This document shows, piece after piece, positions 318-49,939 of a stretch of DNA of 64,000 bases. Source of the stretch: an uncultured Planctomycetota bacterium. Its GTDB lineage: Bacteria; Planctomycetota; Phycisphaerae; Tepidisphaerales; Tepidisphaeraceae. The DNA is taken from positions 832,001-896,000 of the forward strand of contig CAWJEN010000006.1 in assembly GCA_963841915.1 (NCBI GenBank), written 5' to 3'. The translations under genes were made by a program, and so were the position numbers. The notes under the pieces were generated by a model. The model saw only the letters and a list, made by a program, of their open reading frames with translations. It searched no databases and had not been told where the DNA came from. How positions within the stretch are numbered: position 1 is the stretch's first letter; each line of letters begins with the position of its first letter.

Positions 318-3300
318 GCGGCCTCCGCGTCGGGGATCAAGTCATCGTCGTCGTCGTCCATCATCGACGCCTCGAAGTCGGCCGCGGCGGCATCGGCGGC
401 CGACTGGCCCTTCCTCGCCTGCGGGCCGAAGCTGTCCCGGCTCAGCGACAGGTACTCTTTCAGCTCGCCTGTCGACAACTCCGTCAGCCATTCGTCTCCG
501 CTGCCGACGATGTTCTGGGCAAGGGCCGTCTTTTCGGCCAGCATCTTGTCGATGCGTTCCTCGACGGTGCCAAGCGTGACGAACTTGTGCACCTGCACGC
601 GTTTCGTCTGGCCGATGCGGTAGGCCCGGTCGGTCGCCTGGTTTTCGACGGCCGGGTTCCACCAGCGGTCGAAGTGGAACACGTGCGTCGCTGCCGTCAG
701 GTTGAGGCCCAAACCGCCTGCACGCAGGCTCAGCACGAAGATGTCGGCCCCTTCGCCGTGCCTGGTGTTCTGGAAGTTGAGGATCATGTCCTCGCGTTTG
801 GGCTGGGGCGTTCCGCCGTGAAGGAACGCCATCGGCCGCCCGAGTCGCTGCTCGAGCATCGCCACCAGCAGATCGCCCATCTTGCGGTACTGCGTGAAGA
901 TAAGGGCCTTTTCGCCTTCTTCCATGACCTCTTCGAGCATCTCGGCCATCCGGGTCGCCTTGCCGCTGCGGGCAAGCTGCTTCTCGAGCTTGACCGTGTC
1001 GTTCATCGGGTCACCCGTCAACAGGGCCGGGTGGTCGCAGACCTGCTTGAGCTTGGTGAGCACGCTCAAGATCAGTCCGCGCCTGCGGATGCCGCTGGCG
1101 GTATCGATGCGGCCGATCATGTCGCCCGTGATCGTCTCGTACGCCGCCGCCTGTTCCGGCGTCAGGCCGCAGAAGACAGCCATTTCCATCTTCTCGGGCA
1201 GGTCGGCCGCGACTTCGGGCTCGTCCTTGGTCCGCCGCATAATGAACGGCCGGATCATCTCACGCAGCCGCCTGGCCCTGCCGCGATCGCCATGCTTCTC
1301 GATCGGGATGGCGAACCGCTCGCGGAACTCGCCCTGGCTGCCGAGCAGGCCGGGGTTGAGCAGGTCCATGATCGACCACAATTCGCCCAAGTGGTTCTCG
1401 ACCGGCGTACCCGTCAAGGCCACGCGACGCGGCACGTCGAGGCCGCGCACCGCCAGGCTGCTGGCGGCGTTGGGGTTCTTGACCTTCTGCGCCTCATCGA
1501 GCACGACGCGGCCCCACTTGACGCGGCGGAAGTCGTCCTTGTCCCGGTGCGACAACGCGTAGCTCGTGACGACGATGTCGGCCTTGTTGGCCTCTTCCTC
1601 GAAGAACTCGCCACGAAGTCGCCCCGGCCCGTGGTGGGGCAGGACGACCAGCTCCGGCGCGAAACGCGCCAGCTCGCGGCCCCAGTTGCCCAGCACACTC
1701 GTCGGCACAAAGAGCAACGTCGGATCCGGCGGCGGCATCTCGGCTGTCTTGTGCTGCGCCCGTTCGTGCTGCAGGAGGGCGATCATCTGCACGGTCTTGC
1801 CCAGACCCATGTCGTCGGCCAGAACGCCACCGAGGCCGAGGCGGTCGAGGAAGGCGAGCCATTGCAAGCCGCGAAGCTGGTACGGTCGCAGCTCGCCCTT
1901 GAACAGTTCAGGTTGCGGTAACGCCTCGGCCTTGCCGGGGACTTGTTCGAGCAGCTCGTCGACCCACTCCATGCCGCTGAGGCGGACGGCCGGCGCGGTG
2001 CCGGCAGCGGTGCGGAACTCGCCCAGGCCGAAGCCGGCGCGGAAGGCTTCTCCCAGCGTCAACTCGCCGGCGGGACGCTTGTCCATCAGCTCGGCCGCAG
2101 CGGCGGCGGCGTCCGGGTCGATTTCGATCCAACGGCCGTCGCGACGCACCAGCGGCTGACCGGCACGCACCAGCGCCCGGAACTCGGCGGCAGTGATCTC
2201 GTCGCCGCCGACCGCGATCCGCCAGTCGAACTTCAGCAACGCCTCCAGGCCCGCCCGGGCGCTCGTGGCCCTGGCGAACGAACCGTCGCCGAAGCCCAGC
2301 GAGTCGTCGGCCGGCCGCAGGTCCATCACCACTTCGACCCGCGCGTCGCGGCTGTTGGCCCACGACGGCATCCGCGCGTCGAACCCCGACTCGTGCAGAA
2401 TCTCGCCCCAGTCCCGCATCATCTTGAAGGCTTCCTCGCCCGTGAGGAACAGGTGCGAGACACGCTCGGGCGCGGTCGCGGCCGACTTGTCAGCGCCGCC
2501 GGCTTCGAGGACGCGGGCCAGCGGCGGCAGGAAGTCGCCCGCACGCCGCAGCTCGGCGGCGAGACGCTCACGCAGACGCACGGCGTTGCGGCCGACGTAG
2601 CCGATGCTGCCGGCCGGCTGGTCCCACACCTGACGCGCCGGCAGCGGGGCGTGCGTATCGGCCATGTCCGGTGGCGGTAGTAGACGCCACGTCAGCGGCC
2701 ATTGATCGTCGTCAAGCTCCTGGGGCACCGCGTGCGGGTCTTCGGCCAGGGCGGCCTCTTCACGTCGGAACGTGCGGGCCTCCTGCGAGTCGGGCTCGAG
2801 CAGCTCAAAGCCGAGCCGCCAGGGCTCGCCGCCGTCGTCGCCGAGGCGGGCGGTCCACGTCTGCACCTTGTCGAGCAGCGTGGCCACTTCGCGGTCGCGC
2901 CCGCCGACAAAGCGGAGCGAAGGTGTCGCGGCGATGGCGTCGGGGTCTCGAACGAGCGTGCTGATCCACTTCACCTCGGCCTCGGCGTCTTCGCGGTCGG
3001 CGCGTTCGTGGACGTTGCTGAAGAACTCGTCCTTGGCCAGGGCTTCGCGGACGAGGCCGTCGCAGCAGGTGTCGAGGAGTTGTTCGACGAGCTCGAGTCG
3101 ATCGGCGACGCGGCCTGCACCTTCGTCGGCACAGAAGCAGACGCCGGGCATGGCGGCGGCGAAGCGCTCGAGTCGCTCGACGTCGCGGCCGTCCCCGACG
3201 AGCAGCCGCCAGCTGGCGATAACGCCTTCGTTGCCGACGTTGTGGGGTCCGCCGCTGAGGTCGCGACGGGCCGAGGGGTAGAACTGTTCGCGGGCGACGG

Positions 3301-3586
3301 CGGCCTCGGCGAACTGCATCAAGCGGCCGAACGCCTGCATGGAGTCCGGGCCGTCTGCCTGGCGGAGCATTGCCAGCAGGTCGCTGCCGCTGACGGCGAC
3401 GGCGGGTTGCTCGCGAAGCGTGTCACGTCCGGGCTCTGCGACGTGGAGCACGTGCTCGGCGTGCAGGGACTGTTCGGTCCACCGCCACAACCGCCCGGCG
3501 TGCCAGGTGGCCTCACCCGCGCCGGCGGCGGGGGTCATGGGGACCACAGGAGCTGAAGATTCGGCGACGGCGGCGGTGTCTTCCAT
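314..3586 (-). CDS. SNF2/SWI2-family (DEAQ-box) helicase-like ATPase
   Basis: LRPYQ, LADDMGLGKT (motif I), VLDEAQ (II), TGTPVEN (III), LSLRAGGLGLNLT, WWNPAVENQATDRAYRIGQ (VI); 1090 aa. Confidence 0.95.
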   Translation of the reverse strand: MEDTAAVAESSAPVVPMTPAAGAGEATWHAGRLWRWTEQSLHAEHVLHVAEPGRDTLREQPAVAVSGSDLLAMLRQADGPDSMQAFGRLMQFAEAAVAREQFYPSARRDLSGGPHNVGNEGVIASWRLLVGDGRDVERLERFAAAMPGVCFCADEGAGRVADRLELVEQLLDTCCDGLVREALAKDEFFSNVHERADREDAEAEVKWISTLVRDPDAIAATPSLRFVGGRDREVATLLDKVQTWTARLGDDGGEPWRLGFELLEPDSQEARTFRREEAALAEDPHAVPQELDDDQWPLTWRLLPPPDMADTHAPLPARQVWDQPAGSIGYVGRNAVRLRERLAAELRRAGDFLPPLARVLEAGGADKSAATAPERVSHLFLTGEEAFKMMRDWGEILHESGFDARMPSWANSRDARVEVVMDLRPADDSLGFGDGSFARATSARAGLEALLKFDWRIAVGGDEITAAEFRALVRAGQPLVRRDGRWIEIDPDAAAAAAELMDKRPAGELTLGEAFRAGFGLGEFRTAAGTAPAVRLSGMEWVDELLEQVPGKAEALPQPELFKGELRPYQLRGLQWLAFLDRLGLGGVLADDMGLGKTVQMIALLQHERAQHKTAEMPPPDPTLLFVPTSVLGNWGRELARFAPELVVLPHHGPGRLRGEFFEEEANKADIVVTSYALSHRDKDDFRRVKWGRVVLDEAQKVKNPNAASSLAVRGLDVPRRVALTGTPVENHLGELWSIMDLLNPGLLGSQGEFRERFAIPIEKHGDRGRARRLREMIRPFIMRRTKDEPEVAADLPEKMEMAVFCGLTPEQAAAYETITGDMIGRIDTASGIRRRGLILSVLTKLKQVCDHPALLTGDPMNDTVKLEKQLARSGKATRMAEMLEEVMEEGEKALIFTQYRKMGDLLVAMLEQRLGRPMAFLHGGTPQPKREDMILNFQNTRHGEGADIFVLSLRAGGLGLNLTAATHVFHFDRWWNPAVENQATDRAYRIGQTKRVQVHKFVTLGTVEERIDKMLAEKTALAQNIVGSGDEWLTELSTGELKEYLSLSRDSFGPQARKGQSAADAAAADFEASMMDDDDDDLIPDAEAA

Positions 3587-3841
3587 GAGTAGTGCCGCCA
3601 GTGACCCGCCGTTGGGGGCGGGGCGTCTAGCGGAACGGCCACGATAGTCAGGCTCAACCGCCGACGCATTGGCCGATCTGCGGCGATGCGCACCGGCGGC
3701 CGCGGCGGCGCACGTCTTTTAGCGACGCACCACCTACGATGGCCGACGTCCCGCTTCGTAGCAGCACCGTCGGCCGAGTCTGTAACGCGACGTCAAACGC
3801 ATGCACGGCCGACGACCCGCCGACGCAGCCGCGGAGCCGAA

Positions 3842-3857
3842 TGTTCCACGTGGAACA
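3842..3857. other. parS site (ParB/Spo0J-binding palindrome)
   Basis: TGTTCCACGTGGAACA, perfect palindrome matching the chromosomal parS consensus. Confidence 0.9.
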
Positions 3858-3908
3858 TTCGGCGAGGACCAGAATACGGGCTGAGCGGCTCCGGCAAGGG
3901 TCGGCCGA

Positions 3909-3924
3909 TGTTCCACGTGGAACA
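3909..3924. other. parS site
   Basis: TGTTCCACGTGGAACA. Confidence 0.9.
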
Positions 3925-4004
3925 AAGCGACGTCGCCGCCCACGCCAACGCCATTTGGCCGCCGCGGCGCAACGCATTTGGCCAATTTTAAAGCTCGCCG
4001 ACGG

Positions 4005-5177
4005 CTAATCGATGATTTTGACGAGGCTGTTGCCCTCGTAGAGCATCTCGTAGACGGCCTCGATGTCGTCGTCGAGCAGGCGGACGCAGCCCATGCTCGC
4101 GTTGGTGCCGATGGTGTCGGGCTCGATGGTGCCGTGGATGCCGTAGGAAGGCTGCCCGAGTGCGTCACCGCCGATGCCGGTGAGGCCGATCCACCGTTCG
4201 CCCAGCGGGTTCTCCGGGTTGTCGGCTGCGTAGACCTCGCTTGTTCGCGGGTTGGTCCACTGCGGGTTCTCGAGCTTGCTGCCGCGGGTCACTTCCCACA
4301 AACCCGTCGGCGTCGAGCTGTCGGCACCAAGGCCCACGGGGTAGGACCAGAGGTACATCGACCCGCTCGTCCCCGGCAGACCGCCGAGGTAAAGGTCGAT
4401 CTCGAACCGGCTCTTGCTGACCGTCGCGTGGATCGGGCCCTTGATGGTCTTAAGCGTCTGGCCCACGCGGATGCGATTGGGCTGGACCCCGTTGATGCGG
4501 GCGATGAACTGATACGGCACATCGAGCGGGCGGGCGATCTTGCTCAGCAGGTCGCCCGACTGAACGGTGTATTCGCCCTGAAAAGGGTCTTCCTTGTACC
4601 GCTTGGTCGGCGTGAAGACGATCACCTGGTTCACGTCGCGCAAACGCTTCTTGACAGCGTCGGCGGTCTCCTCGTCGAGCGTGCCGGATTGCAGGGCATC
4701 ATTGAGCAGCGTGCGGGCGGCGAGCAGGTCACCGGTGCCGGACAACCGGTCGGCTTCTTCGAGGAAGCCCGAAGCCGGCGCGGTGGGCGGCAGGTAGGGC
4801 TCTTCGGCAGCGGGCTCGGCGGCGGAGGTGTCCATCGCTGCGACCTGAGCGTCGGGCTCGTTGGGCTCCTCGGCGGCAAGGTTCCAGTCGTCGTCGGCCG
4901 TCTTCTTGTGCGAGGGCGTCATCGTCCGGACGACGCTCGACGGGATGGCATCTTCCTGCGTGGGCGTCGACTCGACGGCCTTGAGCGTGCCCGTCGGCTG
5001 CGGCTCGGCAGCAGGTGTCTCGTCAGCTTGAGCGACGGCGTTGTCGTCCGAGCCGAACGGGCCGATCAGGTAGAAACCGAAGACGAGCACGCCGACCAGC
5101 AGCAGCGCGACAAGGCCGCGGCTGAGGAGACGACTGCGGGAACGAGACGACGAGCGAAGCAGGGCCATAGATGTCAC
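4005..5177 (-). CDS. LysM-domain L,D-transpeptidase (YkuD family), membrane anchored
   Basis: N-terminal TM helix; LysM (YTVQSGDLLSKIA...IRVGQTL); catalytic GIHGT...ASMGCVRL motif. Confidence 0.9.
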   Translation of the reverse strand: MTSMALLRSSSRSRSRLLSRGLVALLLVGVLVFGFYLIGPFGSDDNAVAQADETPAAEPQPTGTLKAVESTPTQEDAIPSSVVRTMTPSHKKTADDDWNLAAEEPNEPDAQVAAMDTSAAEPAAEEPYLPPTAPASGFLEEADRLSGTGDLLAARTLLNDALQSGTLDEETADAVKKRLRDVNQVIVFTPTKRYKEDPFQGEYTVQSGDLLSKIARPLDVPYQFIARINGVQPNRIRVGQTLKTIKGPIHATVSKSRFEIDLYLGGLPGTSGSMYLWSYPVGLGADSSTPTGLWEVTRGSKLENPQWTNPRTSEVYAADNPENPLGERWIGLTGIGGDALGQPSYGIHGTIEPDTIGTNASMGCVRLLDDDIEAVYEMLYEGNSLVKIID

Positions 5178-5271
5178 CTCCGTGTGACGATGCGAAGTCG
5201 CCCGCCGAACCGGCGGCGGGCGTTGAGGCAGGCGTTATACCACGTTGAGCCGTCCGGTAAAGTTCGCCGGG

Positions 5272-5287
5272 CGTTCCACGTGGAACA
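5272..5287. other. parS site (1 mismatch)
   Basis: CGTTCCACGTGGAACA, intergenic between pyrD and the transpeptidase gene. Confidence 0.8.
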
Positions 5288-5294
5288 CCTCCCG

Positions 5295-6261
5295 TCAGAC
5301 GTAGGGCGTTTTGCGTGGTTCGGCCGGTTGGTCGCCGGGCAGTTCCAAGCTGCCGACGAGCTCGGAGAGTCTGTCGACCCCGTGCTTCGTGCAATAGTCG
5401 CTCAGGCCGTCGCAGATGTGGTTGGGCGTGGCCGGATCGACGAACAGGGCCGTCCCGATGGCAACGGCCGAGGCTCCGCAGAGGATGAACTCGAGTGCGT
5501 CCATCCACGTCTGTACGCCGCCCATGCCGACGATGGGCACGCCGTTGTGCCGAGTGACGTTGCGATAGACGCGGCTGACGAGGTGCAGGGCGATCGGCTT
5601 GATGGCCGGCCCGCTGAGCCCGCCGGTGACGTTGGCCAGTCTCGGCTTGCGGGTGTGAACGTCGACGGTCATGGCGGTGAACGTGTTGACGAGCGTGAGC
5701 ACGTCGGCCCCGCCGTCACACGCCGCCTGCGGCCGTCTCACAGATGTCCGGCACGTTCGGCGACAGCTTCACCATCAGCGGCTTGTCGGGTAAGGCGTCC
5801 TTGCAGGCTCGTGTCAGTTCCTTGAGCAGTCTGGCGTCAGTGCCGAAGGTCAGGCCGTCCTTGACGTTGGGGCACGAGACGTTGAGCTCCACGCCACCGA
5901 CGCCGTTGAGGCCGTTCATCGCTCCGACGACTTCGACGTAGTCATCCGTGGCGTGGCCGGCGACGTTGACGACGACCGGGCAGGGCATGGCGTCGATCTG
6001 CGGGAGCTTTTCGGTCATGAAGCGGTCGAGGCCGACGTTGGCCAGTCCGATGGCATTGAGCATGCCGCCGCGCGTTTCGACGATGCGTGCCGGTTCGTTG
6101 CCGGGGCGTTCGTGCCGGGTCACGCTTTTGGTGACGAACGCGCCGAGCGCTGCGAGGTCCATGAAGTCGGCATACTCCGGCCCGTACCCGCAGGTGCCGC
6201 TGCACGTCATGGTGGGGTTCGAGAGCGTGAGGCCGGCGAGATCGGTCGAGAGGTCAGGCAC
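5295..6261 (-). CDS. pyrD: Dihydroorotate dehydrogenase (family 1B catalytic subunit), split by a 1-bp frameshift near 5731
   Basis: N-part: SGTCGYG, TKSVT, GMLNAIGLAN, ELNVSCPN, VKLSPN. C-part: NT, GGLSGPAIKP, GMGG, IGTA. Removing one base gives the expected ETAQAACDGGAD. GTG start at 6261 inferred. Confidence 0.9.
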
Positions 6262-6350
6262 GCCCGTTTGTAGGACGGTCAGGAGCCACGAAAGCACAAG
6301 CCGCGCCCGAAGGGGCGCGGCTTGCGATGGTCTTGGCGAAGAGAAGCGTC

Positions 6351-31852: not shown

Positions 31853-34213
31853 TTAGCGGCTTTTGGTCTTGCGGCTGCGGTCAGGCATGGCTGCGGCTGA
31901 TGACCGATAGTTCATTCCTGCGACGCTGCGATCGAAGTCGGCCGAACCGGCACGGTTGAAGACGATGCCCGCGACCGTCGCACCCACATCATTAAGGTGT
32001 TTGGCGGCTTTGTTGATGGTTTCCTTGTTCTGGTTGCGGCTGACCGTCAGGATCGTGGCGTCGGCAGCGCTGGCGACGGGTGTCGTCTCGATGCTGCCCA
32101 GGATCGGGCCACAGTCGAGCAGAATCACGTCGAAGTGCTTCTTGGCTTCGCGGACGAGCCGGGCGACGGCCGACGGGCTGAAAACGCCGGCCTTCTTCTC
32201 GGTCGCGTTACCGATAGGCAGCACGGCCAGGTCAGGCACATCTGTTTCGCAGGTGACGCCCAGGAAGTCGTTGCCGAGCAGGGCGTCGAGGACGCCTTCG
32301 TCACCCTTGACCTTCATCCGCTTGGACAGGCCACCGCCGCGAAGGTCGGCGTCGACGAGCAGCGTACGGCAACCACTGGCCGCGTAGCTGAGGCCGAGCG
32401 CCAGGCACAAGCTCGTCTTGCCGTCCTCGCGACCGGCGGAGGTGACGGCAAAGGCGCGGGGCTTGTCGGTCGTCGCGTCACCGGTCGCCGGGACTGCGTG
32501 GTGGATCTGCAGGATTGTGCGGATCTGGTGCACGCAGTGGGCGGCGATGGAGGCCTGGTTCGGGTCGCTGAGCCGGTCGGGCAGATCGGGCAGCACGCCG
32601 AGCATCGGTACGTGGCGGCCGTTGGGTCCGCTCGGCATCTCGGCGGCGAGGTCGATGGCGTCGTCGCTGTAACGCGTCCGCTTGTCGAACAGGCCGAAGA
32701 GCAGCACGAGACCGGCCGGAATGCCGGCACCGAGAATCGCACCACCAAGTGCGGTGGCCGATCGGGCGTCCTTGGCCACACTGGCGGAGCTGGGCAGGTC
32801 CTTTGGCTTGACGACGCTGATCGCGTCCATGTCGGCCTCTTTAAGCGCCTGACGCACCTGCATATCGCGATCGTCCTCGCGAATCAGGGCGTCGAGTTCC
32901 TTGATGTCGTCCTCGAGTTCGCCGCGACGGCGGGTCGCGCGTTCGAGGGCCTCGCGATCCGAGGCGATAAGCGACAGTCCTTCGACGCCGCTCTCGACAA
33001 TGGGGCGAAGGTTTTCGATGCGAGCACGGAGGCCTTCGATGAAGTCGGCTGTCACGTCGACACGATCGGAGCCGCCGTCGGCAATATTGGGCATCGTGCC
33101 GTAGTACGTCTGGCGAACCTTGTCGGCCTGCGCCTCGATCAACTCCTCGATGAAGCTCAGATTTTCTGTTGCAGTAACGACGGAGGCGGCCTTGTCGCCC
33201 AACCCGCCCCGTTTGAGTTGGCGAAGCTCCGCCCGCGTCTGCGCACGCAGCGCCAACAGGTTCCGCAGCTCGCCGTCACCGTCGGCAAGGGCTTCAGGCG
33301 TCAGGTCGCCCGCTCGGCCCTTGTACTGCTCGGCCCGACGCAGGTCCTGCTCGAGGCTGTTGAGCAGCGCTTCGTCCCTGTCGAGGTCGCTCTGCATCCG
33401 GTCGTAGATACCGCCGAGATTTTCGGTGCCTTGATATCCCTTGGCAATCTGGCTGATCTCGCTCTCGACCCGATTAAGCTGATCCACGTACGCCGACCGC
33501 TGCCGATTGCGGGAGCCGTCGACCTGCTCGCTCGAGATGAGCTGTCGCCTACGGAAGTCGTTCTCGTAAGCCTCCAACGCGGCCAAGGTTCCCTTGACGG
33601 CAATCGTCGGGCTCGGGTGCTCAAAGCCGATGCTGATTGCCCAGGTGGCTTCATTGCGAGAGGCTTCAAGAAAGTTCTGGAAGACAGCCGGCTCCCAGCC
33701 CATGTCGAGTGACTTCCAGATCTCGGTCTCAACCGCCTGCTGTGCGATGGCGGGCGTCTGCGTGATGCGTTCTCTCTCGTTGCGCATGAACGAGACGTAG
33801 CTCTCGACCACGCGTTGGTCCCCTTCGAAGCCTTCGATCGACGGCTGAATCGTGACGCGGCCGCTGGAGCGGTAGGTCGGGCTTGTCAAAGAGTAACCGG
33901 CTGCGGCACCGAGAACGCCACCGCCTGCGGCCAGGCCGATCAGCAGGGGCCAGCGACCGCGCAAGAGTCGCTTCACCTTGTAGAGCGGATCGTCGGCGCC
34001 CGGCATGGCCGAGGAGGTGGTCGACGTCCGAACGAGCTCGGTCGAGGTCTGGGGCACATCAGCCCAAAAGTCGGCTGAGCGGCCTCCGGCGTCGTCTACT
34101 GCTTTGATGCTCATCTGCGAAGTGCGGTTCGTGCTCATGGAAGGGCCGGTTGCGGGCGCTGCGGGCGACCCGTCGCTCGGTTCTACGCTCGCCGACCCCC
34201 GAGGGTCAGACAC
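31853..34213 (-). CDS. Wzc-like polysaccharide co-polymerase / BY-kinase
   Basis: Two TM segments flanking a coiled-coil; Walker A SAGREDGKTS, A-prime LLVDADLR, Walker B ILLDCGP. Confidence 0.85.
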   Translation of the reverse strand: MSDPRGSASVEPSDGSPAAPATGPSMSTNRTSQMSIKAVDDAGGRSADFWADVPQTSTELVRTSTTSSAMPGADDPLYKVKRLLRGRWPLLIGLAAGGGVLGAAAGYSLTSPTYRSSGRVTIQPSIEGFEGDQRVVESYVSFMRNERERITQTPAIAQQAVETEIWKSLDMGWEPAVFQNFLEASRNEATWAISIGFEHPSPTIAVKGTLAALEAYENDFRRRQLISSEQVDGSRNRQRSAYVDQLNRVESEISQIAKGYQGTENLGGIYDRMQSDLDRDEALLNSLEQDLRRAEQYKGRAGDLTPEALADGDGELRNLLALRAQTRAELRQLKRGGLGDKAASVVTATENLSFIEELIEAQADKVRQTYYGTMPNIADGGSDRVDVTADFIEGLRARIENLRPIVESGVEGLSLIASDREALERATRRRGELEDDIKELDALIREDDRDMQVRQALKEADMDAISVVKPKDLPSSASVAKDARSATALGGAILGAGIPAGLVLLFGLFDKRTRYSDDAIDLAAEMPSGPNGRHVPMLGVLPDLPDRLSDPNQASIAAHCVHQIRTILQIHHAVPATGDATTDKPRAFAVTSAGREDGKTSLCLALGLSYAASGCRTLLVDADLRGGGLSKRMKVKGDEGVLDALLGNDFLGVTCETDVPDLAVLPIGNATEKKAGVFSPSAVARLVREAKKHFDVILLDCGPILGSIETTPVASAADATILTVSRNQNKETINKAAKHLNDVGATVAGIVFNRAGSADFDRSVAGMNYRSSAAAMPDRSRKTKSR

Positions 34214-34301
34214 GCGGCAGGGCGATCGGATCGGACAGGCCGATGATTTACCTATCGACCGCCAACACCGGTCGGCAGACGCGGGTTACCCGCTCCCACT
34301 T

Positions 34302-35141
34302 TTATCGGTCCTGCGGCAGTTGTCGAGTCGCCTGGCCGACTCCCGCTTCGGGTGATGCACCTTCGTTGCCCAGCAGCACCTCAAGCGTCGGCTCCAGCGC
34401 CCGCATCACATCGGTCACGACCTGCAGCTTCACCCGCTCGGGAAGCGCTGCGTCGATGTCGGACATAGAAATGGTCACCGCTGCTGCGCCGCGACGCCGT
34501 TGTTGATACTCGCCGCCGCCTCGGGTGGCGTAGTAGAAGGCCTCAAAATCGCCGGCCGTCGTGCCGCCACCTCGGCGTGCCGGCACGATGAGCGTGCCGG
34601 CGATCCACTCGTCGCGGCCATCGAAGGTCGAGCCGTTCACGCGTATGGAGCGGTCGTCCGAGCGGTACAGCAGCCGACCCTCACCCACGGGCGGGCTTTG
34701 CCCCGACCATCTTGCCGGTGATTCAGGCCAGTAGCGACGGATCTCGTTGTCGCGACTAACGAGCACGATGACCGCCTCGACCCGCTCAGCCTTGAGGTCG
34801 CCGGGCTTTGACGGCGAAAAGTTGATGAACTCGATCCGACGTGCCGCCAGCGGAGGCCTGTAGGCAGCATTGGGTTGCCGCATCGGCAGGTCGCGACCGA
34901 TCCACAAACCGCTCGGTCCTTCGAGGCTCGTGGCGACGTTCTCGTTGATGACCGACGTGGCCAGGGCGTGGTAGTCGTCCCAATTGCTCGGACGGTGCGT
35001 GAGGTTCAGGTAGACCAGCGACACCGCCAGGACGGCGGCGGTCAGCGTCGGCGCAAGCCACGCGGCCAACGAGTGCGGACGCAACTTCGACCAGAACGAT
35101 CGCGACCGTCCCCTCGAAGTTCCGCCCGGGTGCGTCGTCAT
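34302..35141 (-). CDS. Exosortase-associated EpsI-like protein
   Basis: TM anchor then YH...WIGRDLP pattern; start overlaps the exosortase stop (ATGA). Confidence 0.55.
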   Translation of the reverse strand: MTTHPGGTSRGRSRSFWSKLRPHSLAAWLAPTLTAAVLAVSLVYLNLTHRPSNWDDYHALATSVINENVATSLEGPSGLWIGRDLPMRQPNAAYRPPLAARRIEFINFSPSKPGDLKAERVEAVIVLVSRDNEIRRYWPESPARWSGQSPPVGEGRLLYRSDDRSIRVNGSTFDGRDEWIAGTLIVPARRGGGTTAGDFEAFYYATRGGGEYQQRRRGAAAVTISMSDIDAALPERVKLQVVTDVMRALEPTLEVLLGNEGASPEAGVGQATRQLPQDR

Positions 35142-36106
35142 CCGGCCAGACGGTAGCGGTAGATGTGTAACCCGACCCAGTCAAAGAACGCAACGCCGGC
35201 TGCCACGAGCCCGATCCCGATGGCCGGCAGCAGAAAATCACTCAGCGTCCCCACGTTTGTCGCAAGCTGATCCCACCGATCGGCATCCGGGGCGTCGACC
35301 GCATGCGACGCCAGCCACAACACCGGCACCGCTCTGACGATGTTTAGCACGATCGCCAAAATCGGCACGAGCAAGAGCAACAGCCACCGGTAGCCGTTCC
35401 GCAGCGTCGTCGAGAAGGCAAACGTGTAGACGATCACCAGCAACGCCATCGCCAGGGGCAGGCCGTCGCAAGCGTCGGCTGTCGCTTCGTAACCGACACG
35501 AGCGACAGGGTCGGTGAGATTGAGCAGGTCGAAGATCGCCCGCACGCTCGACCGCGTGATCGAAATCATCGGCTGCGTCAGCCAATCCCGGGCCCGCCCA
35601 GGCAAAGGCAGGAAGAACAACCCTGCGAAAAATACCGGCATCATCCGCAAAATCAGGTTTCTGCCGCACACGCTCACAATCGCACCGACGGCCAGCAGCA
35701 ACGCGCCGAGGTGGAACAACATCGACACACCCGCCTGCCCGCCGACGAAGATGGAAGCAAAGCCAAGACTTGCGATGAGCAGGCCGAACCACTGTCCGCC
35801 GACCCTGAGGTAAGGCAGCCGCTTTCGACGACGCCACCACAAGATCACGATGGCAAACGGTGCCAGAAAAACGTGCAGGTTGTGGCCGTAGACGTCGACG
35901 AGGCTTGCCGCGTCGGCCCACGCCCACCAGCCGACGAAGACGGCTAAGACACCGAATGCGATGCCCAGGACGAGGTTGTGCGTCCGCAACCGCGGCCGCC
36001 AATGACGGTCCTGCGGATCGTCAGCACCGGCGAGCTGACGCGGCATGTACCGCTCGGCCGGCCGCGGGGCGGTTGAACCATCGAGGCTGGACGAGACAGA
36101 CGACAT
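35138..36106 (-). CDS. Exosortase/archaeosortase family protein
   Basis: About 8 TM helices; Cys motif ADACDGL, Arg motif LNIVR; N-terminal YGHxLHxFLAP. Confidence 0.8.
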   Translation of the reverse strand: MSSVSSSLDGSTAPRPAERYMPRQLAGADDPQDRHWRPRLRTHNLVLGIAFGVLAVFVGWWAWADAASLVDVYGHNLHVFLAPFAIVILWWRRRKRLPYLRVGGQWFGLLIASLGFASIFVGGQAGVSMLFHLGALLLAVGAIVSVCGRNLILRMMPVFFAGLFFLPLPGRARDWLTQPMISITRSSVRAIFDLLNLTDPVARVGYEATADACDGLPLAMALLVIVYTFAFSTTLRNGYRWLLLLLVPILAIVLNIVRAVPVLWLASHAVDAPDADRWDQLATNVGTLSDFLLPAIGIGLVAAGVAFFDWVGLHIYRYRLAG

Positions 36107-36165
36107 GCGCAGCAGTGCGTGAGCGGGACGATTTCCCTACTGACCACGTCGGCCAGATGCAGATC

Positions 36166-37437
36166 TCAGGTGAGCCGCGTGTCACTGTTGCCGATGCCAC
36201 GCAGCGCGAGGTTAAGTGCATCGACGTTGCTCGCAAGCCGCTTGGCTTCGTCGACGCTGATGACCTGACGCTGGAACAGGTCGGTCAGGTGTTGGTCGAA
36301 CGACTGGTTGCCGGCCTCCTTGTTGCCGACGATGCTCTTTAACTTCTCGTATTCCTTCTCCATGATGTACCGACGCGCAAGCGGCGTCATGTACATCACC
36401 TCGACCACCGGCACGCGACCTTTGCTGTCACGCTTCTTGGCCAGACGCTGACAGAACACGCAAGCAAGGTTCGTCGCTAGCTGCGTGTTCATCAGGTCGG
36501 CCTGCTGCTTGTCGAACAGGGCGACCACGCGCTCGATCGTCATCGACGCGTTCGTCGCGTGGACCGTCGAAAAGACCAGGTGGCCCGTATCGGCGGCCCG
36601 CAGGGCGGTCATAAGGCTGAAGCCGTCGCGAATCTCACCGATGAGCATCGTGTCCGGGTCCTGTCGCATGGCAGCGCGCAGGGCGTGGTCGTAGCTCTCG
36701 GAGTCGGTGCCGACTTCGACCTGGCTGACGAGGGACTTGTTGTCCTGGTGCTCGAACTCGATGGGGTCTTCGACGGTGATGATCCGCTCGGAGCGGGACG
36801 CATTGATCTTGCCGATGATGGCCGCCAGCGTCGTTGATTTACCTGAACCGGTCGTGCCTGAGACGAGCACGAGGCCGCGGTAGAGGTCAGCGAGCTTGGT
36901 GATCTGTGGCGGCAGGTTGAGGTCGCCGAACTTGGGAATGGTCGTCACGATCCGCCGCATGACGACCGCCGCCTTGCCGCGGCTGTGGAAGCTGGCGACG
37001 CGGAAGCGGGCGATCAGCTCGCCCTCCTTGGCCTCTGCGTCTTTGTAGAGCGCGTAGCTGGTGTCGACGCTGCCTTTGTGCAGGTACTCCTGAAACTTGT
37101 CGTCGTCGCCGATGAGTTCACGGTTGAACTCGGTCATGAGGGTGTCGTCCGGCTTGCCGCACTCGAGGAACCTCAGCTTGCCGTCGACGCGGATGACGGG
37201 CGTGGAGTCTGCCTGCAGGTGCAAGTCGCTGCCACCGGCCGTGACCACGGTCTTGAGGAACTGCCGCAGGTTGGGCACGTCGGCGGTGCTTCGCTTCTTA
37301 CCGTTGGCTTGGGCGACGGGCTCGGGGTCGTGCCCGCTCCCGGCGATGCTCATCGTGTCACCGGGCGCATGTCGCTCGGCCTCTTGGGCAGCCAACTCGG
37401 GGTCGTCCAGAATGCTTGCAGGGTTGTTATCAGCCAT
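36166..37437 (-). CDS. pilT: PilT/PilU family type IV pilus ATPase
   Basis: SDLHL, GTTGSGKSTT, TVEDPIE, MRQDPD, GEIRD, TGHLVFSTVH; start uncertain (37437 or 37572). Confidence 0.88.
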   Translation of the reverse strand: MADNNPASILDDPELAAQEAERHAPGDTMSIAGSGHDPEPVAQANGKKRSTADVPNLRQFLKTVVTAGGSDLHLQADSTPVIRVDGKLRFLECGKPDDTLMTEFNRELIGDDDKFQEYLHKGSVDTSYALYKDAEAKEGELIARFRVASFHSRGKAAVVMRRIVTTIPKFGDLNLPPQITKLADLYRGLVLVSGTTGSGKSTTLAAIIGKINASRSERIITVEDPIEFEHQDNKSLVSQVEVGTDSESYDHALRAAMRQDPDTMLIGEIRDGFSLMTALRAADTGHLVFSTVHATNASMTIERVVALFDKQQADLMNTQLATNLACVFCQRLAKKRDSKGRVPVVEVMYMTPLARRYIMEKEYEKLKSIVGNKEAGNQSFDQHLTDLFQRQVISVDEAKRLASNVDALNLALRGIGNSDTRLT

Positions 37438-38069: not shown

Positions 38070-38663
38070 ATGTTATTGCTGATCGATAACTACGACAGCT
38101 TCACGTACAACCTCGTCCAGCTCGTGGCGACGGTCGCACGCGACGCCATGCCGGACCTGGACGTGAAGGTCGTTCGCAACGACGCCATTACAGCAGAGGG
38201 CGCAGCGGCGTTGTCGCCGAGCCACCTGATCGTCAGCCCGGGCCCTTGCTCGCCGAATGAAGCGGGTGTGTCGTCGGACGTCATCGAGCGACTCGCACCG
38301 GCGGGCGTCCCGACGCTGGGCGTGTGCCTTGGCCACCAGTGCATTGCCGACCGCTTCGGCGGCGTCGTCGAGCGGGCGGGCAAGCTCATGCACGGCAAGA
38401 CCGACCTCGTCCACCACGACGGCCGCACGATCTTTGCCGGCATTCCGTCACCCTTCACCGCCGCCCGGTACCACTCGCTGATCGTCCGCGAGGCTTCGCT
38501 GGCCGAGGCCGATTTCGAGATCAGCGCCAGAACTGCCGCCGGTGAAATCATGGGGCTGCGCCACCGCCGTTGGCCGCTCGAAGGCGTGCAGTTCCATCCG
38601 GAGAGCTTCATGACCGAGCATGGGGCGACGATGATCGGCAACTTCCTGGCGATGGGGCGTTGA
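38070..38663 (+). CDS. trpG: Anthranilate/aminodeoxychorismate synthase glutamine amidotransferase subunit (TrpG/PabA)
   Basis: IDNYDSFTYNL, SPGP, LGVCLGHQ, RYHSL, GVQFHPES. Confidence 0.9.
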   Translation: MLLLIDNYDSFTYNLVQLVATVARDAMPDLDVKVVRNDAITAEGAAALSPSHLIVSPGPCSPNEAGVSSDVIERLAPAGVPTLGVCLGHQCIADRFGGVVERAGKLMHGKTDLVHHDGRTIFAGIPSPFTAARYHSLIVREASLAEADFEISARTAAGEIMGLRHRRWPLEGVQFHPESFMTEHGATMIGNFLAMGR

Positions 38664-38831
38664 GACGAGTGCGCCCGCGACGCCGCCGCAGCGTTGCCCT
38701 GTGAAGCTGGGCTGGCCTTGACGACTGTCGGGCAAGGCGAGTCTCCATCGGCCTGCTTCGACTGATTCTGGGCCGTTATCGGGCAGTTGTGCGTCGACCA
38801 AATTGGCAGGCGTGGGGTAGGTTGGACTCAC

Positions 38832-39581
38832 ATGAAGATGCACTTAGCCATTGCCGTCGCTGCTGCGACCGTTGCCTCGTCGACCGTATCCGCCGCCTTA
38901 GAGGGGTATGCGATCGATCCAGCTTCCAGCATGCTGACCGTCACTGCCGAACTCGGTGGCAACGCCGCCACACCACAGTTCCTGGGTAGCAACATGGTCA
39001 ACCTCTCGGGCGGGATCCTCGTCGATCAGACTGCGACCACGATCCAGTTCGTCGGAGGCAGCCTTGTCGATGTGCTTCCGCAGGCCGCTCCTGTTTCACC
39101 CGATGTCGGTGGTATGCCAGGGTCTGCCATCGGTGACTTCGGCCTGAACTTCACGGACTTGTTCGGCACCATCCCGGCGGCCGGTCGCGACTTCAGCTTC
39201 GATCTGACCAGCGGGGTGATTCCCATCGTGCCGGTCCCTGGTCCCTTCGGCGGATTCGACTCCTTCGACGCGTCACAAATCGACTTCGAGCTGCTCGACG
39301 GCAGCGTCGACTACGACGCGGGCCTGGCCTTCGGATCGGCTGACCTGACGGGGGAGTCGGCGAGCAACAACGCAGTCCTGGGTGACCTGACCGACCTGTT
39401 CGGCCTTGACTTCATCACCATTCCTGTTGATGCGACGCTGTTCTTCACGGTGCTGACGCCGAATGACGCGAGCGTGACGATCACCGGCAACATTGTCGCC
39501 ACCCGCATCGTTCCCGAGCCTGCGACGGCCAGCGTCGTGCTGATGAGCGGCGGCCTGCTGCTGGGCCGTCGCCGTCGATAG
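38832..39581 (+). CDS. PEP-CTERM surface protein
   Basis: Signal peptide; C-terminal VPEP + hydrophobic helix + RRRR. Confidence 0.9.
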   Translation: MKMHLAIAVAAATVASSTVSAALEGYAIDPASSMLTVTAELGGNAATPQFLGSNMVNLSGGILVDQTATTIQFVGGSLVDVLPQAAPVSPDVGGMPGSAIGDFGLNFTDLFGTIPAAGRDFSFDLTSGVIPIVPVPGPFGGFDSFDASQIDFELLDGSVDYDAGLAFGSADLTGESASNNAVLGDLTDLFGLDFITIPVDATLFFTVLTPNDASVTITGNIVATRIVPEPATASVVLMSGGLLLGRRRR

Positions 39582-39794
39582 TGCAAGCGGGTGCAATTGA
39601 AGTGGGCGAACCGGGAGCATTCTGCCCCCGGTTTGTCTTTGCGCCCCGGCGGCCGCGGCGGCGCACGCGCTGGCGTGTCTCACGAACGACGACAACAGAC
39701 GGACCGCCTTCGGAACGTGCCCGCACTTTCTGACTGACGACGTTCGATTGCCCCCGCAGGACGAACGACCCGCCGACGCGTTTGCGGACCGAAA

Positions 39795-39810
39795 TGTTCC
39801 ACGTGGAACA
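39795..39810. other. parS site
   Basis: TGTTCCACGTGGAACA. Confidence 0.9.
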
Positions 39811-39861
39811 TTGGCACAGACGGCCAAACCGGTCTCAGAGCCCGCCACGACGGTCGGCCGA

Positions 39862-39877
39862 TGTTCCACGTGGAACA
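39862..39877. other. parS site
   Basis: TGTTCCACGTGGAACA. Confidence 0.9.
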
Positions 39878-39928
39878 ATCGCCCCGCGCCAGCCGCCCCG
39901 ACCCCATTTGGCCGCCGCCGCGCAACAC

Positions 39929-40759
39929 TCAGTCGTCGTCATCCATGTCGCCGAAGATCATTTCGAAGAATTCGTCCATGATCTCGATCGACGCTTTGGC
40001 CGCCTGCTCGTCGTAGGCGATGGCCCCCTTGAGCTGCGGATTCTTCTCGGCCATCATGGTCGCATCGGGGTTGCTGAAGGCGTGCAGGGCGGTCGGAAAG
40101 TTGACGAGCGTCATCGGCACGCCCGCTTCGAGCGACTTCTGGACGAAACCGGCAAAGGCGTCGGGCTTGACCATCGGGTCGGCACCGCCGTGCAGGATCA
40201 GCATGGCAGGGCCGTTGTACGCGGCCTGCGGTGCGGCATCGGCCGACAGGCCACCGTGAAAGCTGACGACAGCCTTGAGCTTGCTGCCGTAATCGCTCGT
40301 CGCCATGTCGACAACCGTGCTGCCACCGAAGCAGAAGCCGATCGCGCCGATCGCTTCGTCGTCCACATTCTCCTGGTCCACCAGTACCTTCATGGCCGGC
40401 ATCACTAGCTCCGCCAAGCCCGTCTCTCGGGCCATTCCAGACCATTTACCCGCCTCTGCCGGGTCACCGGTTGTCACGCCGTTGCCGTACATATCTGCGA
40501 CGAAGGCGATGTAGCCCTCTTCAGCCAACTCGCGGGCCCGCATCTTGGGATACTCGGTCAGGCCCCACCACTCGGGAACGACCAGAATGCCGGGTCGCAT
40601 GCCGGTCACGTCTTCGTCGTAGATCAACACGCCTTGGGCTATCTCGCCTGTCGGTAGCTCATATTCGACGACCTCTTCCTTCATGCCGCCTTGACCGAAC
40701 GCCGGCAGGACAATCCAGAGCAGGGCGACGAATGTCGTGAGTGTCAGGGGCTTGTGCAT
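39929..40759 (-). CDS. Dienelactone hydrolase family protein, secreted
   Basis: PEWWGL, ADMYG, GFCFGG, SFHG, HGGADP, HAFSNP; ATG at 40759 preceded by a TACGCT hexamer. Confidence 0.9.
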   Translation of the reverse strand: MHKPLTLTTFVALLWIVLPAFGQGGMKEEVVEYELPTGEIAQGVLIYDEDVTGMRPGILVVPEWWGLTEYPKMRARELAEEGYIAFVADMYGNGVTTGDPAEAGKWSGMARETGLAELVMPAMKVLVDQENVDDEAIGAIGFCFGGSTVVDMATSDYGSKLKAVVSFHGGLSADAAPQAAYNGPAMLILHGGADPMVKPDAFAGFVQKSLEAGVPMTLVNFPTALHAFSNPDATMMAEKNPQLKGAIAYDEQAAKASIEIMDEFFEMIFGDMDDDD

Positions 40760-40820
40760 GCGCGCAGCGTATCGACCACGCCGCACGTCGTGAACGTTCG
40801 AAGAGGTGGGATCCGCTGAC

Positions 40821-41381
40821 CTATTTCGACGAAGGCGGCTTGTCTGGCCACGCATCGGAGCGGGAGATATCTCGAATCTCCTTGACGCCGTAGAGCTTGC
40901 CGTCGGGCTTGTCCATGCCTGGGCACATCGTCTTGCCGTGGTTCCAGGCTTCTTCGCTCTGGAGCAGCCCCTGCCAGAACGGCCACGTCCGACACTGCAG
41001 CGGCCTGGCCTTGTAGACCTTGCAACCGCGCTTGCGAGCGTCGGGCTTGTCACCTTTGAGCGGCTTGAGGAACTCGCAGTCGTATTGGCCGTTGGGCTGA
41101 CGAACTTCCTTCAGGCTCAACCGCTTGCCGATCTTGCGAACATGCTTGCGGCGGAAGTCGGGCTCGCTCATCTTCAGGAGCGTCGCGAGCTCTTCAACCT
41201 CGTCATCCGTGACCCAGACGTACCCGGCCGGTCCTGTGCAGCAGTTGCCGCAGGTCGAGCAGCGGAACTTAAGCCCGTCCTTGTACCAAGGCTCATCGGC
41301 CACCGGCAGGGCAACGCCGCCTGCGTGCCGGACGTCGCTGACATCGTCGGAATCTTCAGGCCGATGGGACAAGGCGATCAT
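40821..41381 (-). CDS. YkgJ-family CxxCxxCC (putative Zn/Fe-S chelating) protein
   Basis: WYKDGLKFRCSTCGNCC, CEFL, CKVYKARPLQCRTWPFW, CPG; start uncertain. Confidence 0.85.
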   Translation of the reverse strand: MIALSHRPEDSDDVSDVRHAGGVALPVADEPWYKDGLKFRCSTCGNCCTGPAGYVWVTDDEVEELATLLKMSEPDFRRKHVRKIGKRLSLKEVRQPNGQYDCEFLKPLKGDKPDARKRGCKVYKARPLQCRTWPFWQGLLQSEEAWNHGKTMCPGMDKPDGKLYGVKEIRDISRSDAWPDKPPSSK

Positions 41382-49852: not shown

Positions 49853-49939
49853 GGAGAGATGCCCGAGTGGCTGAAGGGGCAGCACTGGAAATGCTGTGTG
49901 CGGTTTACCGTACCGGGAGTTCGAATCTCCCTCTCTCCG
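49853..49939 (+). tRNA. tRNA-Ser (anticodon GGA)
   Basis: Acceptor GGAGAGA/TCTCTCC + G; anticodon arm CAGCA-CTGGAAA-TGCTG; long variable arm; GTTCGAATC T-loop; CCA not encoded. Confidence 0.95.

What the first reader, a model, noticed from the sequence alone, without database searches (positions are those of the whole stretch)
3687..3971. Dispersed 285-bp MITE-like element carrying a fixed-spacing pair of parS centromere sites (second copy at 39640-39924)
Seen: two intergenic segments 35,953 bp apart have the same length (285 bp) and share landmarks at identical offsets. These are a left GCGCnCCGGCGGCCGCGGCGGCGCACG block, ACGACCCGCCGACGC, parS-1, GGTCGGCCGA + parS-2 exactly 67 bp later, and CCATTTGGCCGCCGCnGCGCAAC. 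Both copies end in 15-bp imperfect terminal inverted repeats (TGCGCnnCGGCGGCC ... GGCCGCCGnnGCGCA). The sequence between the blocks is strongly diverged, so geometry and motifs are conserved more than overall sequence. Known: parS sites are normally isolated 16-mers without homologous flanks. Inference: this may be a mobile or duplicated centromere cassette that spreads ParB loading sites, or a higher-order nucleoprotein site or structured RNA in which extra boxes bind a second factor.
Basis: partly seen in the sequence, partly recalled or inferred. Interest (0 to 1): 0.85.

Follow-up and report, generated by a model that had tools for sequence, protein, structure and literature searches.

The report
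Genome-tiling parS cassettes mark packaging starts
The two repeats are 2 of 64 one-directional DNA cassettes spaced about every 54 kb along this bacterium's genome, each joining two centromere-type (parS) sites to a box that also precedes its resident phage-head genes, and a fading 7-kb ripple in base composition runs from each to one side, so they likely mark where gene-transfer particles start packaging the chromosome.

Summary
The two copies belong to 64 oriented ~290-bp cassettes in this Phycisphaerae genome, spaced far more evenly than chance (CV 0.52 vs 0.96). Box distances vary in ~10.5-bp steps; 67 bp is not fixed (13 of 60). Copies are only 56% alike, with no target-site duplication or RNA covariation, so this is not an active MITE or a structured RNA. 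Extra single parS sites lie only on one side (43 of 47). Two congeners carry the family, mostly at other positions, each with the parS variant found beside its own parB. A damped strand-skew ripple (period ~7.3 kb; ~8 kb in G004) runs from each cassette to one side (61 of 63). The end box also sits 12-13 nt before terS, portal and a holin-like operon of a dispersed GTA-like gene set. Best reading (0.55): ParB-marked start sites for serial headful packaging. Rivals are a ParB/SMC loading lattice (0.22) and replication origins (0.1). No particle or binding data exist. The scan noted this family before in other windows of this genome; the GTA lead came from note e1-9854439 and was re-tested here.

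The parts
3687..3975 (+). Cassette copy 1 (L box, phased spacer, B box, parS pair, C-rich spacer, R box), between a SNF2 helicase gene and a LysM/YkuD gene
3687..3713 (+). L box: palindromic double copy of the end motif, TGCGC-n3-GGCGGCCGCS-n3-GCGCA
3812..3826 (+). B box ACGACCCGCCGACGC, 31-37 or 40-43 bp before the first parS in most copies
3842..3857 (.). parS 1 (perfect palindrome)
3909..3924 (.). parS 2
3955..3975 (+). R box, the same motif that lies 12-13 nt before the start codons of terS, portal and the holin-like operon elsewhere in the genome
5272..5287 (.). Single parS (1 mismatch), intergenic, 1.3 kb beyond the R box of copy 1
39640..39926 (+). Cassette copy 2, between two convergent genes
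39640..39666 (+). L box of copy 2
39765..39779 (+). B box of copy 2
39795..39810 (.). parS 1 of copy 2
39862..39877 (.). parS 2 of copy 2
39908..39926 (+). R box of copy 2
41789..41804 (.). Single perfect parS inside a hydrolase-fold gene (reads LFHVEQ), 1.9 kb beyond the R box of copy 2
34040..37240 (+). C-rich zone of the skew ripple on the L side of copy 2 (four-fold-site residual -0.34 in the 1.5-kb bin at -4.5 kb)
38140..41340 (+). G-rich zone of the ripple around copy 2 (+0.07 to +0.10; the bin just to its left is +0.24)
2187..5387 (+). G-rich zone of the ripple around copy 1 (+0.12 to +0.20); its C-rich zone runs off the window start (-0.30)

Best explanation
The cassettes are likely oriented start sites (pac-like) at which a domesticated gene-transfer-agent head begins serial headful packaging of the host chromosome, with the parS pair likely loading ParB as part of the start complex. 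Shown: anatomy, number, spacing, orientation, phasing, one-sided single sites, the ripple, the shared box, and intact terS-terL, portal, capsid and holin-like genes. Inferred steps: (1) a GTA factor (the HTH-bearing TerS, or the sigma70-region-4-like protein encoded near terS) binds the L/R box; (2) DNA wraps over the phased boxes and A/T tracts while ParB loads at the pair and spreads toward the R side, where extra parS sites were selected; (3) TerL cuts about 1.2-2 kb to the R side of the L box (spread about 1 kb) and packages toward the L side in ~7-kb headfuls; (4) recombination of these fragments in recipients leaves the strand-biased substitution ripple; (5) cassette-bearing first headfuls move most often, and spacing near one series length covers the genome.
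For: Ripple: four-fold-site G/C residual is +0.17 at -1..0 kb, -0.13 at -5..-3, +0.05 at -8, -0.07 at -12..-10, about 0 at -15 and -0.03 at -18 kb. Amplitude is 0.059 at 7.25 kb against a null 95th percentile of 0.021; no downstream period reaches the largest null amplitude. It holds for genes of either direction. 61 of 63 cassettes are positive against 49% of 3000 random places. It repeats in G004, where most positions differ (17 of 19 positive; period about 8 kb in 12 long loci). A first-cut-on-the-R-side model fits better with fewer parameters (chi2 298-322 vs 368-375; null 1327). Box: 136 of 148 genome matches are at cassettes; free copies or a variant precede terS, portal and a holin-like operon at 12-13 nt in G000, and one or more of these genes in G001, G003 and G004. 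Genes: TerL, portal and SU10-type capsid are intact. The capsid is found in 209 of 401 class genomes, mostly single-copy. TerS has HTH look-alikes, and its best solved match is Sf6 TerS, weak at E 0.55. Gaps depend on orientation: L-facing-L 76 kb (n 14), tandem 48-55 kb (n 27), R-facing-R 43 kb (n 18); P 0.001. Phasing: Rayleigh R 0.79 at 10.5 bp (44 copies); A/T period 10.5-11 bp in the spacer. SPP1 pac spans the terS promoter and is a bent, wrapped site with repeated boxes (PMC4737164, passages). GTA fragments of 4.6-8.9 and 13.4 kb are reported (PMC12946183, passages).
Against: No particles, reads or binding data. G001 has the head genes and the box but no cassette in 638 kb read or in whole-genome pattern searches (80% complete). 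Of 10 genomes with 20 or more parS-like sites only 6 have this capsid, no more than the class average (Fisher P 0.75); the other four carry unrelated prophage-like head clusters. In G287 the skew flips at 9 of 12 parS units and stays flipped for 10 kb or more, an origin-like N shape rather than a 7-kb ripple. In G003 (6 copies) the sign is reversed relative to the parS-to-R frame. Single parS sites do not set the ripple phase (rho -0.06, n 43; anchoring on them fits worse). The L box is not needed for the footprint (0.25 without, 0.24 with). The substitution pattern is G gained over C and A without a rise in T, so plain deamination of resected ends does not explain it. The ortholog control (G004 genes near cassettes vs cassette-free G000 orthologs) points the right way but is not significant (P 0.09, n 16; P 0.57, n 10). 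Two of the four free intergenic boxes precede no recognisable phage gene.
Confidence: 0.55

Rival explanations
1. The cassettes are a chromosome-wide lattice of one-way ParB/SMC loading stations (mini-centromeres) that fold the chromosome into ~50-kb loops; the L/B boxes bind a roadblock that sends ParB to the R side. The box shared with phage genes was co-opted, and the ripple is a side effect.
For: One ParB, with Smc, ScpA and a Soj-like ParA present. parS letters co-vary with the parB-linked site in three congeners. Even spacing. 43 of 47 single sites lie on the R side, 18 of them inside genes in all three frames and absent from 7 of 8 ortholog comparisons. Dispersed parS recurs in genomes without this capsid. 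ParB recruits SMC at parS (PMC7333895, passages).
Against: It gives no reason for a damped 7-8 kb periodic substitution bias on one side or for the end box standing before terS, portal and holin-like genes in four genomes. In P. aeruginosa and C. crescentus extra parS is tolerated only within about 600 kb of the native site (PMC7333895, passage). It can also hold together with the best reading.
Confidence: 0.22
2. The cassettes are multiple, oriented replication origins or restart sites, each with its own parS pair.
For: The skew switches from C-rich to G-rich near each cassette, the sign of an origin (R minus L 0.080, null SD 0.019). Even spacing. Weak long-range skew in G000. N-shaped skew with up-jumps at some parS units in G287.
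Against: The signal fades within 4 kb, oscillates, and does so on one side only. Gene orientation shows no leading-strand bias beyond 5 kb. A long-range switch is still seen near dnaA at C6:371 kb. No DnaA-box cluster in cassettes (13 loose matches in 64, a weak test using a recalled consensus).
Confidence: 0.1
3. The cassettes are an old, selfish MITE-like repeat that captured parS; spacing reflects target immunity and the rest is incidental.
For: Inverted ends in most copies; 61 of 64 are intergenic, with a tilt to convergent gaps (25 of 64); empty sites in both directions against G004; an unrelated REP-like repeat carries parS in G053.
Against: No TSD (3.98 vs 4.02, 44 copies), maximum identity 67%, indels kept to whole helical turns, no open frame bounded by the boxes, single parS sites selected in neighbouring genes, and the ripple.
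Confidence: 0.07

Closest known systems
Chromosomal ParABS centromere (parS/ParB/ParA, SMC loading; Jalal and Le 2020, PMC7333895, passages read)
   Same: Consensus 16-bp palindrome; single cognate parB with a parS cluster beside it; ParA, Smc and ScpA present.
   Different: 175 sites (up to 2 mismatches) over all large contigs instead of up to 20-23 near the origin; embedded in an oriented, phased cassette; one-sided satellite sites.
SPP1/SF6-type pac site and headful series (PMC4737164, passages read)
   Same: Repeated boxes, bendable A/T-phased DNA, the same box at the terS promoter, HTH-bearing TerS, one-directional series inferred.
   Different: 64 host-chromosome copies rather than one phage site; contains parS; inferred first cut 1-2 kb away.
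Gene transfer agents RcGTA, DsGTA, FpGTA, PBSX (PMC7947584, PMC6854486, PMC5786225, PMC12946183; passages read)
   Same: Split, conserved head-gene sets in the host chromosome; fragment size too small for the genes themselves (inferred 7-8 kb).
   Different: RcGTA TerS lacks the DNA-binding domain and no discrete start sites are reported; DsGTA has seven peaks without a motif. Here TerS keeps an HTH and a defined motif is proposed. The capsid is SU10-type (PF17236); no PF05065 capsid in G000.
Lateral transduction and pseudo-pac generalized transduction (PMC12946183 passages; PMC10996546 search listing only)
   Same: Unidirectional headful steps into host DNA from a fixed site.
   Different: No prophage at the start sites; sites appear maintained by the host and evenly spread.
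MITE / REP-type repeats (features recalled)
   Same: Short, non-coding, intergenic, dispersed, lineage-specific positions, inverted ends.
   Different: No TSD, no young copies, no cognate transposase found, phased spacers, even spacing.

Membership tests
MITE | Terminal inverted repeats | tested here: inconclusive
   Present as a by-product of the palindromic L box; 14 of 63 copies lack a good L box; the G004 consensus shows only R
MITE | Target-site duplication | tested here: not met
   44 copies, 3.98 vs 4.02 in shuffled pairings; no fixed-offset signal; old copies could have lost it
MITE | Near-identical recent copies | tested here: not met
   Mean 56%, maximum 67% identity among 44 copies
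MITE | Autonomous partner with the same ends | tested here: inconclusive
   No ORF bounded by the boxes; only PF01797 was searched, 2 hits away from cassettes; DDE families not searched
MITE | Filled and empty sites among relatives | tested here: met
   At least 5 of 20 G004 sites are empty in G000 and 2 G000 sites in G004; at least 3 of 20 plus the parB copy are shared
Chromosomal parS centromere | Consensus palindrome matching the site at the cognate parB | tested here: met
   G000 GTTCC type, G004 GCTCC type, G003 GCACC type, each also beside its own parB
Chromosomal parS centromere | Few sites clustered near the origin | tested here: not met
   64 cassettes on 5 of 6 contigs, evenly spaced
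Chromosomal parS centromere | ParB binding, spreading, SMC loading | not testable with these tools
   Genes present; needs ChIP-seq and Hi-C
GTA with pac-type starts | Intact TerS, TerL, portal and capsid genes kept in the host lineage | tested here: met
   TerS assignment rests on weak hits plus position
GTA with pac-type starts | No phage replication or integration module beside the head genes | tested here: inconclusive
   Host genes flank the three G000 loci. In 8 of 30 related portal loci (71 ORFs scanned, plus 4 from G000) hits were head genes, one repressor-like and one excisionase-like protein. No genome-wide search for tail or replication genes.
GTA with pac-type starts | Headful-sized, one-directional series from the site | tested here: inconclusive
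   Only an indirect evolutionary footprint: a 7.3-8 kb damped ripple on one side
GTA with pac-type starts | Particles that package and transfer host DNA | not testable with these tools
   No culture; no sequencing run listed
Structured non-coding RNA | Family match or covarying base pairs | tested here: not met
   Rfam gives only a tRNA in the window; 0 double changes in 26 pairs over 44 copies; L/R spacers not complementary, P 0.24. Low folding energies come from the palindromes.
Replication origin (oriC type) | Sustained skew switch to the next terminus | tested here: not met
   Fades in 4 kb and oscillates in G000 and G004; sustained only in the unrelated units of G287
Replication origin (oriC type) | DnaA-box cluster and unwinding element | tested here: inconclusive
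   No cluster in cassettes, but none near dnaA either with the recalled consensus

The most novel reading that the evidence does not exclude
A Phycisphaerae lineage has turned its centromere sequence into a genome-wide, oriented address system for a previously undescribed gene transfer agent: ParB-loaded cassettes carrying the GTA gene box start headful packaging every ~54 kb, propagate themselves by being packaged first, and have written the capsid size (7-8 kb) into the synonymous sites of the chromosome, so GTA activity and head size can be read from genome sequence alone.
Probability: 0.45. Interest if true: 0.95.

Novelty: categorically new. Interest (0 to 1): 0.86.

Why it matters
GTAs are described as packaging without defined start sites, and parS as an origin-proximal centromere that is poorly tolerated elsewhere. 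This genome appears to break both rules at once. If the reading holds, it gives the first sequence-defined GTA start site, a direct link between ParB and DNA packaging, a GTA candidate across half of a bacterial class, and a sequence-only footprint for finding GTAs and their head size in uncultured lineages. Even under the rival, a chromosome tiled by 64 oriented ParB stations is outside described chromosome architecture and is testable by ChIP-seq and Hi-C.

Tried and rejected
No sequencing run was listed, which is no evidence either way. The ParB-TerS complex prediction was never run because the queue was full, so it says nothing. TerS homolog search returned only itself. No PF05065 capsid in G000, G001, G003 or G004. 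Single parS as the cut marker was rejected. Cytosine deamination as the cause of the skew was not supported. Unanchored autocorrelation cannot detect the ripple in 200-kb pieces, so the 0.15 peak at 7 kb in G001 is inconclusive. Skew at free boxes and at the parB loci was too noisy, and the parB-linked copy scores only 0.02. G078 parS clusters gave no consistent skew in 8 loci. The G287 flank motif was not found near its terminase genes. The box was not found before portal genes outside the genus (26 of the 28 loci checked; two of the 30 were not checked; one loose match far upstream). PMC9958956 held no text on sigma-terminase coupling beyond a reference title, so that parallel is not used. 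Paper searches: parS+ParB+Planctomycetes (5 listed, none relevant by title), dispersed parS/SMC (21 listed), GTA+packaging+parS+ParB, GTA+Planctomycetota (11 listed, none on this by title), GTA+headful+pac+periodic (25 listed), GC skew+GTA+periodicity, parS+terminase+ParB+packaging initiation, parS+repeat element. The library lacks most subscription papers; no supplements were read.

Full report
OBSERVATION. The two segments, their boxes and offsets are as described, and their likeness outside parS far exceeds shuffles (150 vs a maximum of 30 in 1000). The genome (G000, 3.63 Mb, 6 contigs, 93.8% complete) holds 121 perfect copies of the 16-mer and 175 with up to 2 mismatches; Markov models of order 3 and 5 expect fewer than 0.01. 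A profile built from 57 of the genome's own pairs gives 64 cassettes at 45 bits or more, 34 on + and 30 on -; seed copies match by construction. Record titles of close relatives place the lineage in Phycisphaerae, likely Tepidisphaerales. Gene calls come from my own hexamer caller, and split genes suggest indel errors in the assembly, which may blur spacings by a base.

ANATOMY. The order is L box, spacer, B box, parS, spacer, parS, C-rich spacer, R box. Distances come in steps of one helical turn: L-B 104-107 or 114-117, B-parS 31-37 or 40-43, parS-parS 65-68 (21 of 60) or 73-76 (34 of 60), parS-R near 37, 47 or 56, and L-R 249-252 (5), 258-263 (20) or 269-272 (25) of 53. Phase concentration peaks at 10.5 bp (R 0.79, 44 cleaner copies). 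A/T dinucleotides in the poorly conserved L-B spacer are periodic at 10.5-11 bp (0.32-0.36; shuffle maximum 0.15; 40 copies). That is the signature of proteins on one face of bent double-stranded DNA. There is no TSD, identity among 44 copies averages 56% with a maximum of 67%, and the consensus RNA fold has no compensatory change in 26 pairs.

DISTRIBUTION. The 59 gaps average 54 kb with CV 0.52; random placement gives 0.96 (0 of 20000 as low), and placement only in intergenic or convergent gaps gives 0.95 and 0.92 (0 of 10000 each). Gap size depends on orientation: 76 kb between L sides (14), 48-55 kb in tandem (27), 43 kb between R sides (18). Of 47 parS sites outside cassettes (up to 2 mismatches; 3 sites of the parB cluster left out), 43 lie within 3.5 kb on the R side, none on the L side, 4 far away. 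18 of the 43 lie in called genes, in all three frames. In 7 of 8 ortholog comparisons the congener lacks the site; in the eighth, G004 has its own parS variant at the same codons beside a shared cassette. These sites were therefore likely selected in place.

RELATIVES. Among 401 class genomes most have 1-4 parS-like sites and 10, in five families, have 20 or more (counted by eye). G004 has a homologous cassette with the same R box, a pair 63-65 or 74 bp apart and the variant GCTCCACGTGGAGC that also flanks its parB (20 copies in fetched loci); 9 of 9 single sites lie on the R side. G003 has the R box about 170-200 bp from a third variant (6 of 7 sites examined). G001 shows none (80% complete). 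G002 has one G004-type copy, possibly contamination. Positions mostly differ: at least 5 of 20 G004 sites are empty in G000, and at least 3 plus the parB-linked copy are shared. G053 and G287 carry parS in unrelated repeats.

THE RIPPLE. Testing an origin idea, I found that codon-corrected G/C skew flips near cassettes, whichever way genes point. In cassette orientation it is G-rich from about -1.5 to +2 kb, C-rich from -5.6 to -2.2 kb and weakly G-rich again near -8 kb. An earlier unreviewed note (e1-9854439) named a 7.5-kb ripple and a link to phage-head genes; I tested both. The ripple is damped, has a period of 7.0-7.5 kb and runs on the L side only (amplitude 0.059 vs null 95th percentile 0.021; beyond -7.5 kb still 0.030 vs 0.022; split-half correlation 0.79). 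61 of 63 cassettes show it, including both window copies. G004 repeats it with a period near 8 kb. Against a simple story: single parS sites do not set the phase, T does not rise on the G-rich strand, G003 has the opposite sign in the parS-to-R frame, and the ortholog control is not significant.

THE BOX. The motif GGCCGCS-n3-GCGCA has 148 matches, 136 at cassettes; control patterns have 3-10. The free intergenic copies lie at four places: before a 172-aa gene and a terminase large subunit gene; before an operon with a holin-like, a PKD and a beta-helix protein; before an orphan ORF; and in a gap with no phage gene. A variant precedes the portal gene, which is followed by an SU10-type capsid gene. 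In each phage-gene case the box ends 12-13 nt before the start codon, read from the sequence. The same holds in G003 (three loci), G004 (portal, holin-like operon, degenerate at terS) and G001 (portal, terS). It was not found outside the genus. The 172-aa protein has a weak TerS profile hit, HTH look-alikes among phage proteins, and a model (pLDDT 73, 5 sequences) whose best solved matches are small terminases at non-significant E-values. A sigma70-region-4-like gene lies 2 kb upstream. The capsid occurs in 209 of 401 class genomes, mostly once and without stops, beside a portal gene among host genes in the loci scanned. This fits a domesticated, split GTA-like set; particles are not shown.

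MECHANISM. I commit to ParB-marked packaging starts (0.55). It is the only reading that covers the one-sided headful-scale period, the shared box, the phasing and the orientation-dependent gaps. SPP1 offers the precedent of a pac site that overlaps the terS promoter and wraps on an HTH ring (PMC4737164, passages). ParB's part is the weakest step: co-variation of parS letters with each genome's parB site indicates real binding, but no contact with terminase was tested. A ParB/SMC lattice (0.22) explains parS, spacing and single sites but not the ripple or the box, and may hold in addition. Multiple origins (0.10) gain from G287, where skew jumps up at 9 of 12 units and declines slowly over tens of kb, but fail on oscillation in G000. 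parS expansion is not tied to this capsid across the class (6 of 10); the four others have unrelated prophage-like head clusters. A selfish MITE (0.07) may describe the route of spread only.

KNOWN SYSTEMS AND NOVELTY. Chromosomal parS numbers reach 20-23 near the origin, and extra sites are tolerated only within about 600 kb in two tested species (PMC7333895, passages). For GTAs no discrete start sites were known and RcGTA TerS lacks the HTH (PMC6854486, PMC7947584, passages); DsGTA has seven peaks without a motif (PMC5786225, passages). Eight searches of the held library found no description of this arrangement. It works like a pac site plus a centromere but is not shown to be a member of either family, and it fails two MITE tests. 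The scan had noted the family in four other windows of this genome; the scores rest on my own tests. Novelty: categorically new; interest 0.86.

Noticed in passing
window 5295-5741 and 5716-6297 (-): Dihydroorotate dehydrogenase is split into two ORFs; purH-like and argH-like genes near parB are also in halves. Likely assembly indels.
   Followed up: no
G287:C22:1-461300 (L190-L194, L213-L232): A different oriented unit (single parS plus a 14-bp flank motif, 23 exact flank matches) and N-shaped four-fold-site skew of up to +/-0.6 with up-jumps at some units; could be multiple origins or a larger headful.
   Followed up: partly
G053 loci L017-L032: parS carried in young REP-like tandem repeats about 95-103 bp apart, unrelated to this cassette.
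   Followed up: partly
L076 (G002:C57): One G004-type cassette in a genome whose parB-linked sites are of the G000 type; contamination or transfer.
   Followed up: no
L135:6555 region (G000 C5:679554) and L134:6770 region (C5:615769): Free palindromic L-type boxes without parS, one before an orphan 183-aa ORF; possible further GTA genes or cassette relics.
   Followed up: partly
L001 / L006 (G000 C5:830986-834356): parB is an orphan among host genes with a dense parS cluster and a truncated cassette behind it, also seen in G004; the Soj-like parA lies on contig C1, and the portal-capsid pair lies 7-10 kb from parB.
   Followed up: partly
L002, L003 (G000 C6:371-372 kb and 510-512 kb): Two dnaA homologs; a long-range skew switch lies near the first.
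   Followed up: partly
window 49853-49939 (+): A tRNA gene, the only Rfam match in the window.
   Followed up: no
L273, L277 (G287, G281) and L275, L276 (G318, G389): Two further head-gene clusters, each shared by two genomes of one family; one lies near a phage-type transposase.
   Followed up: no
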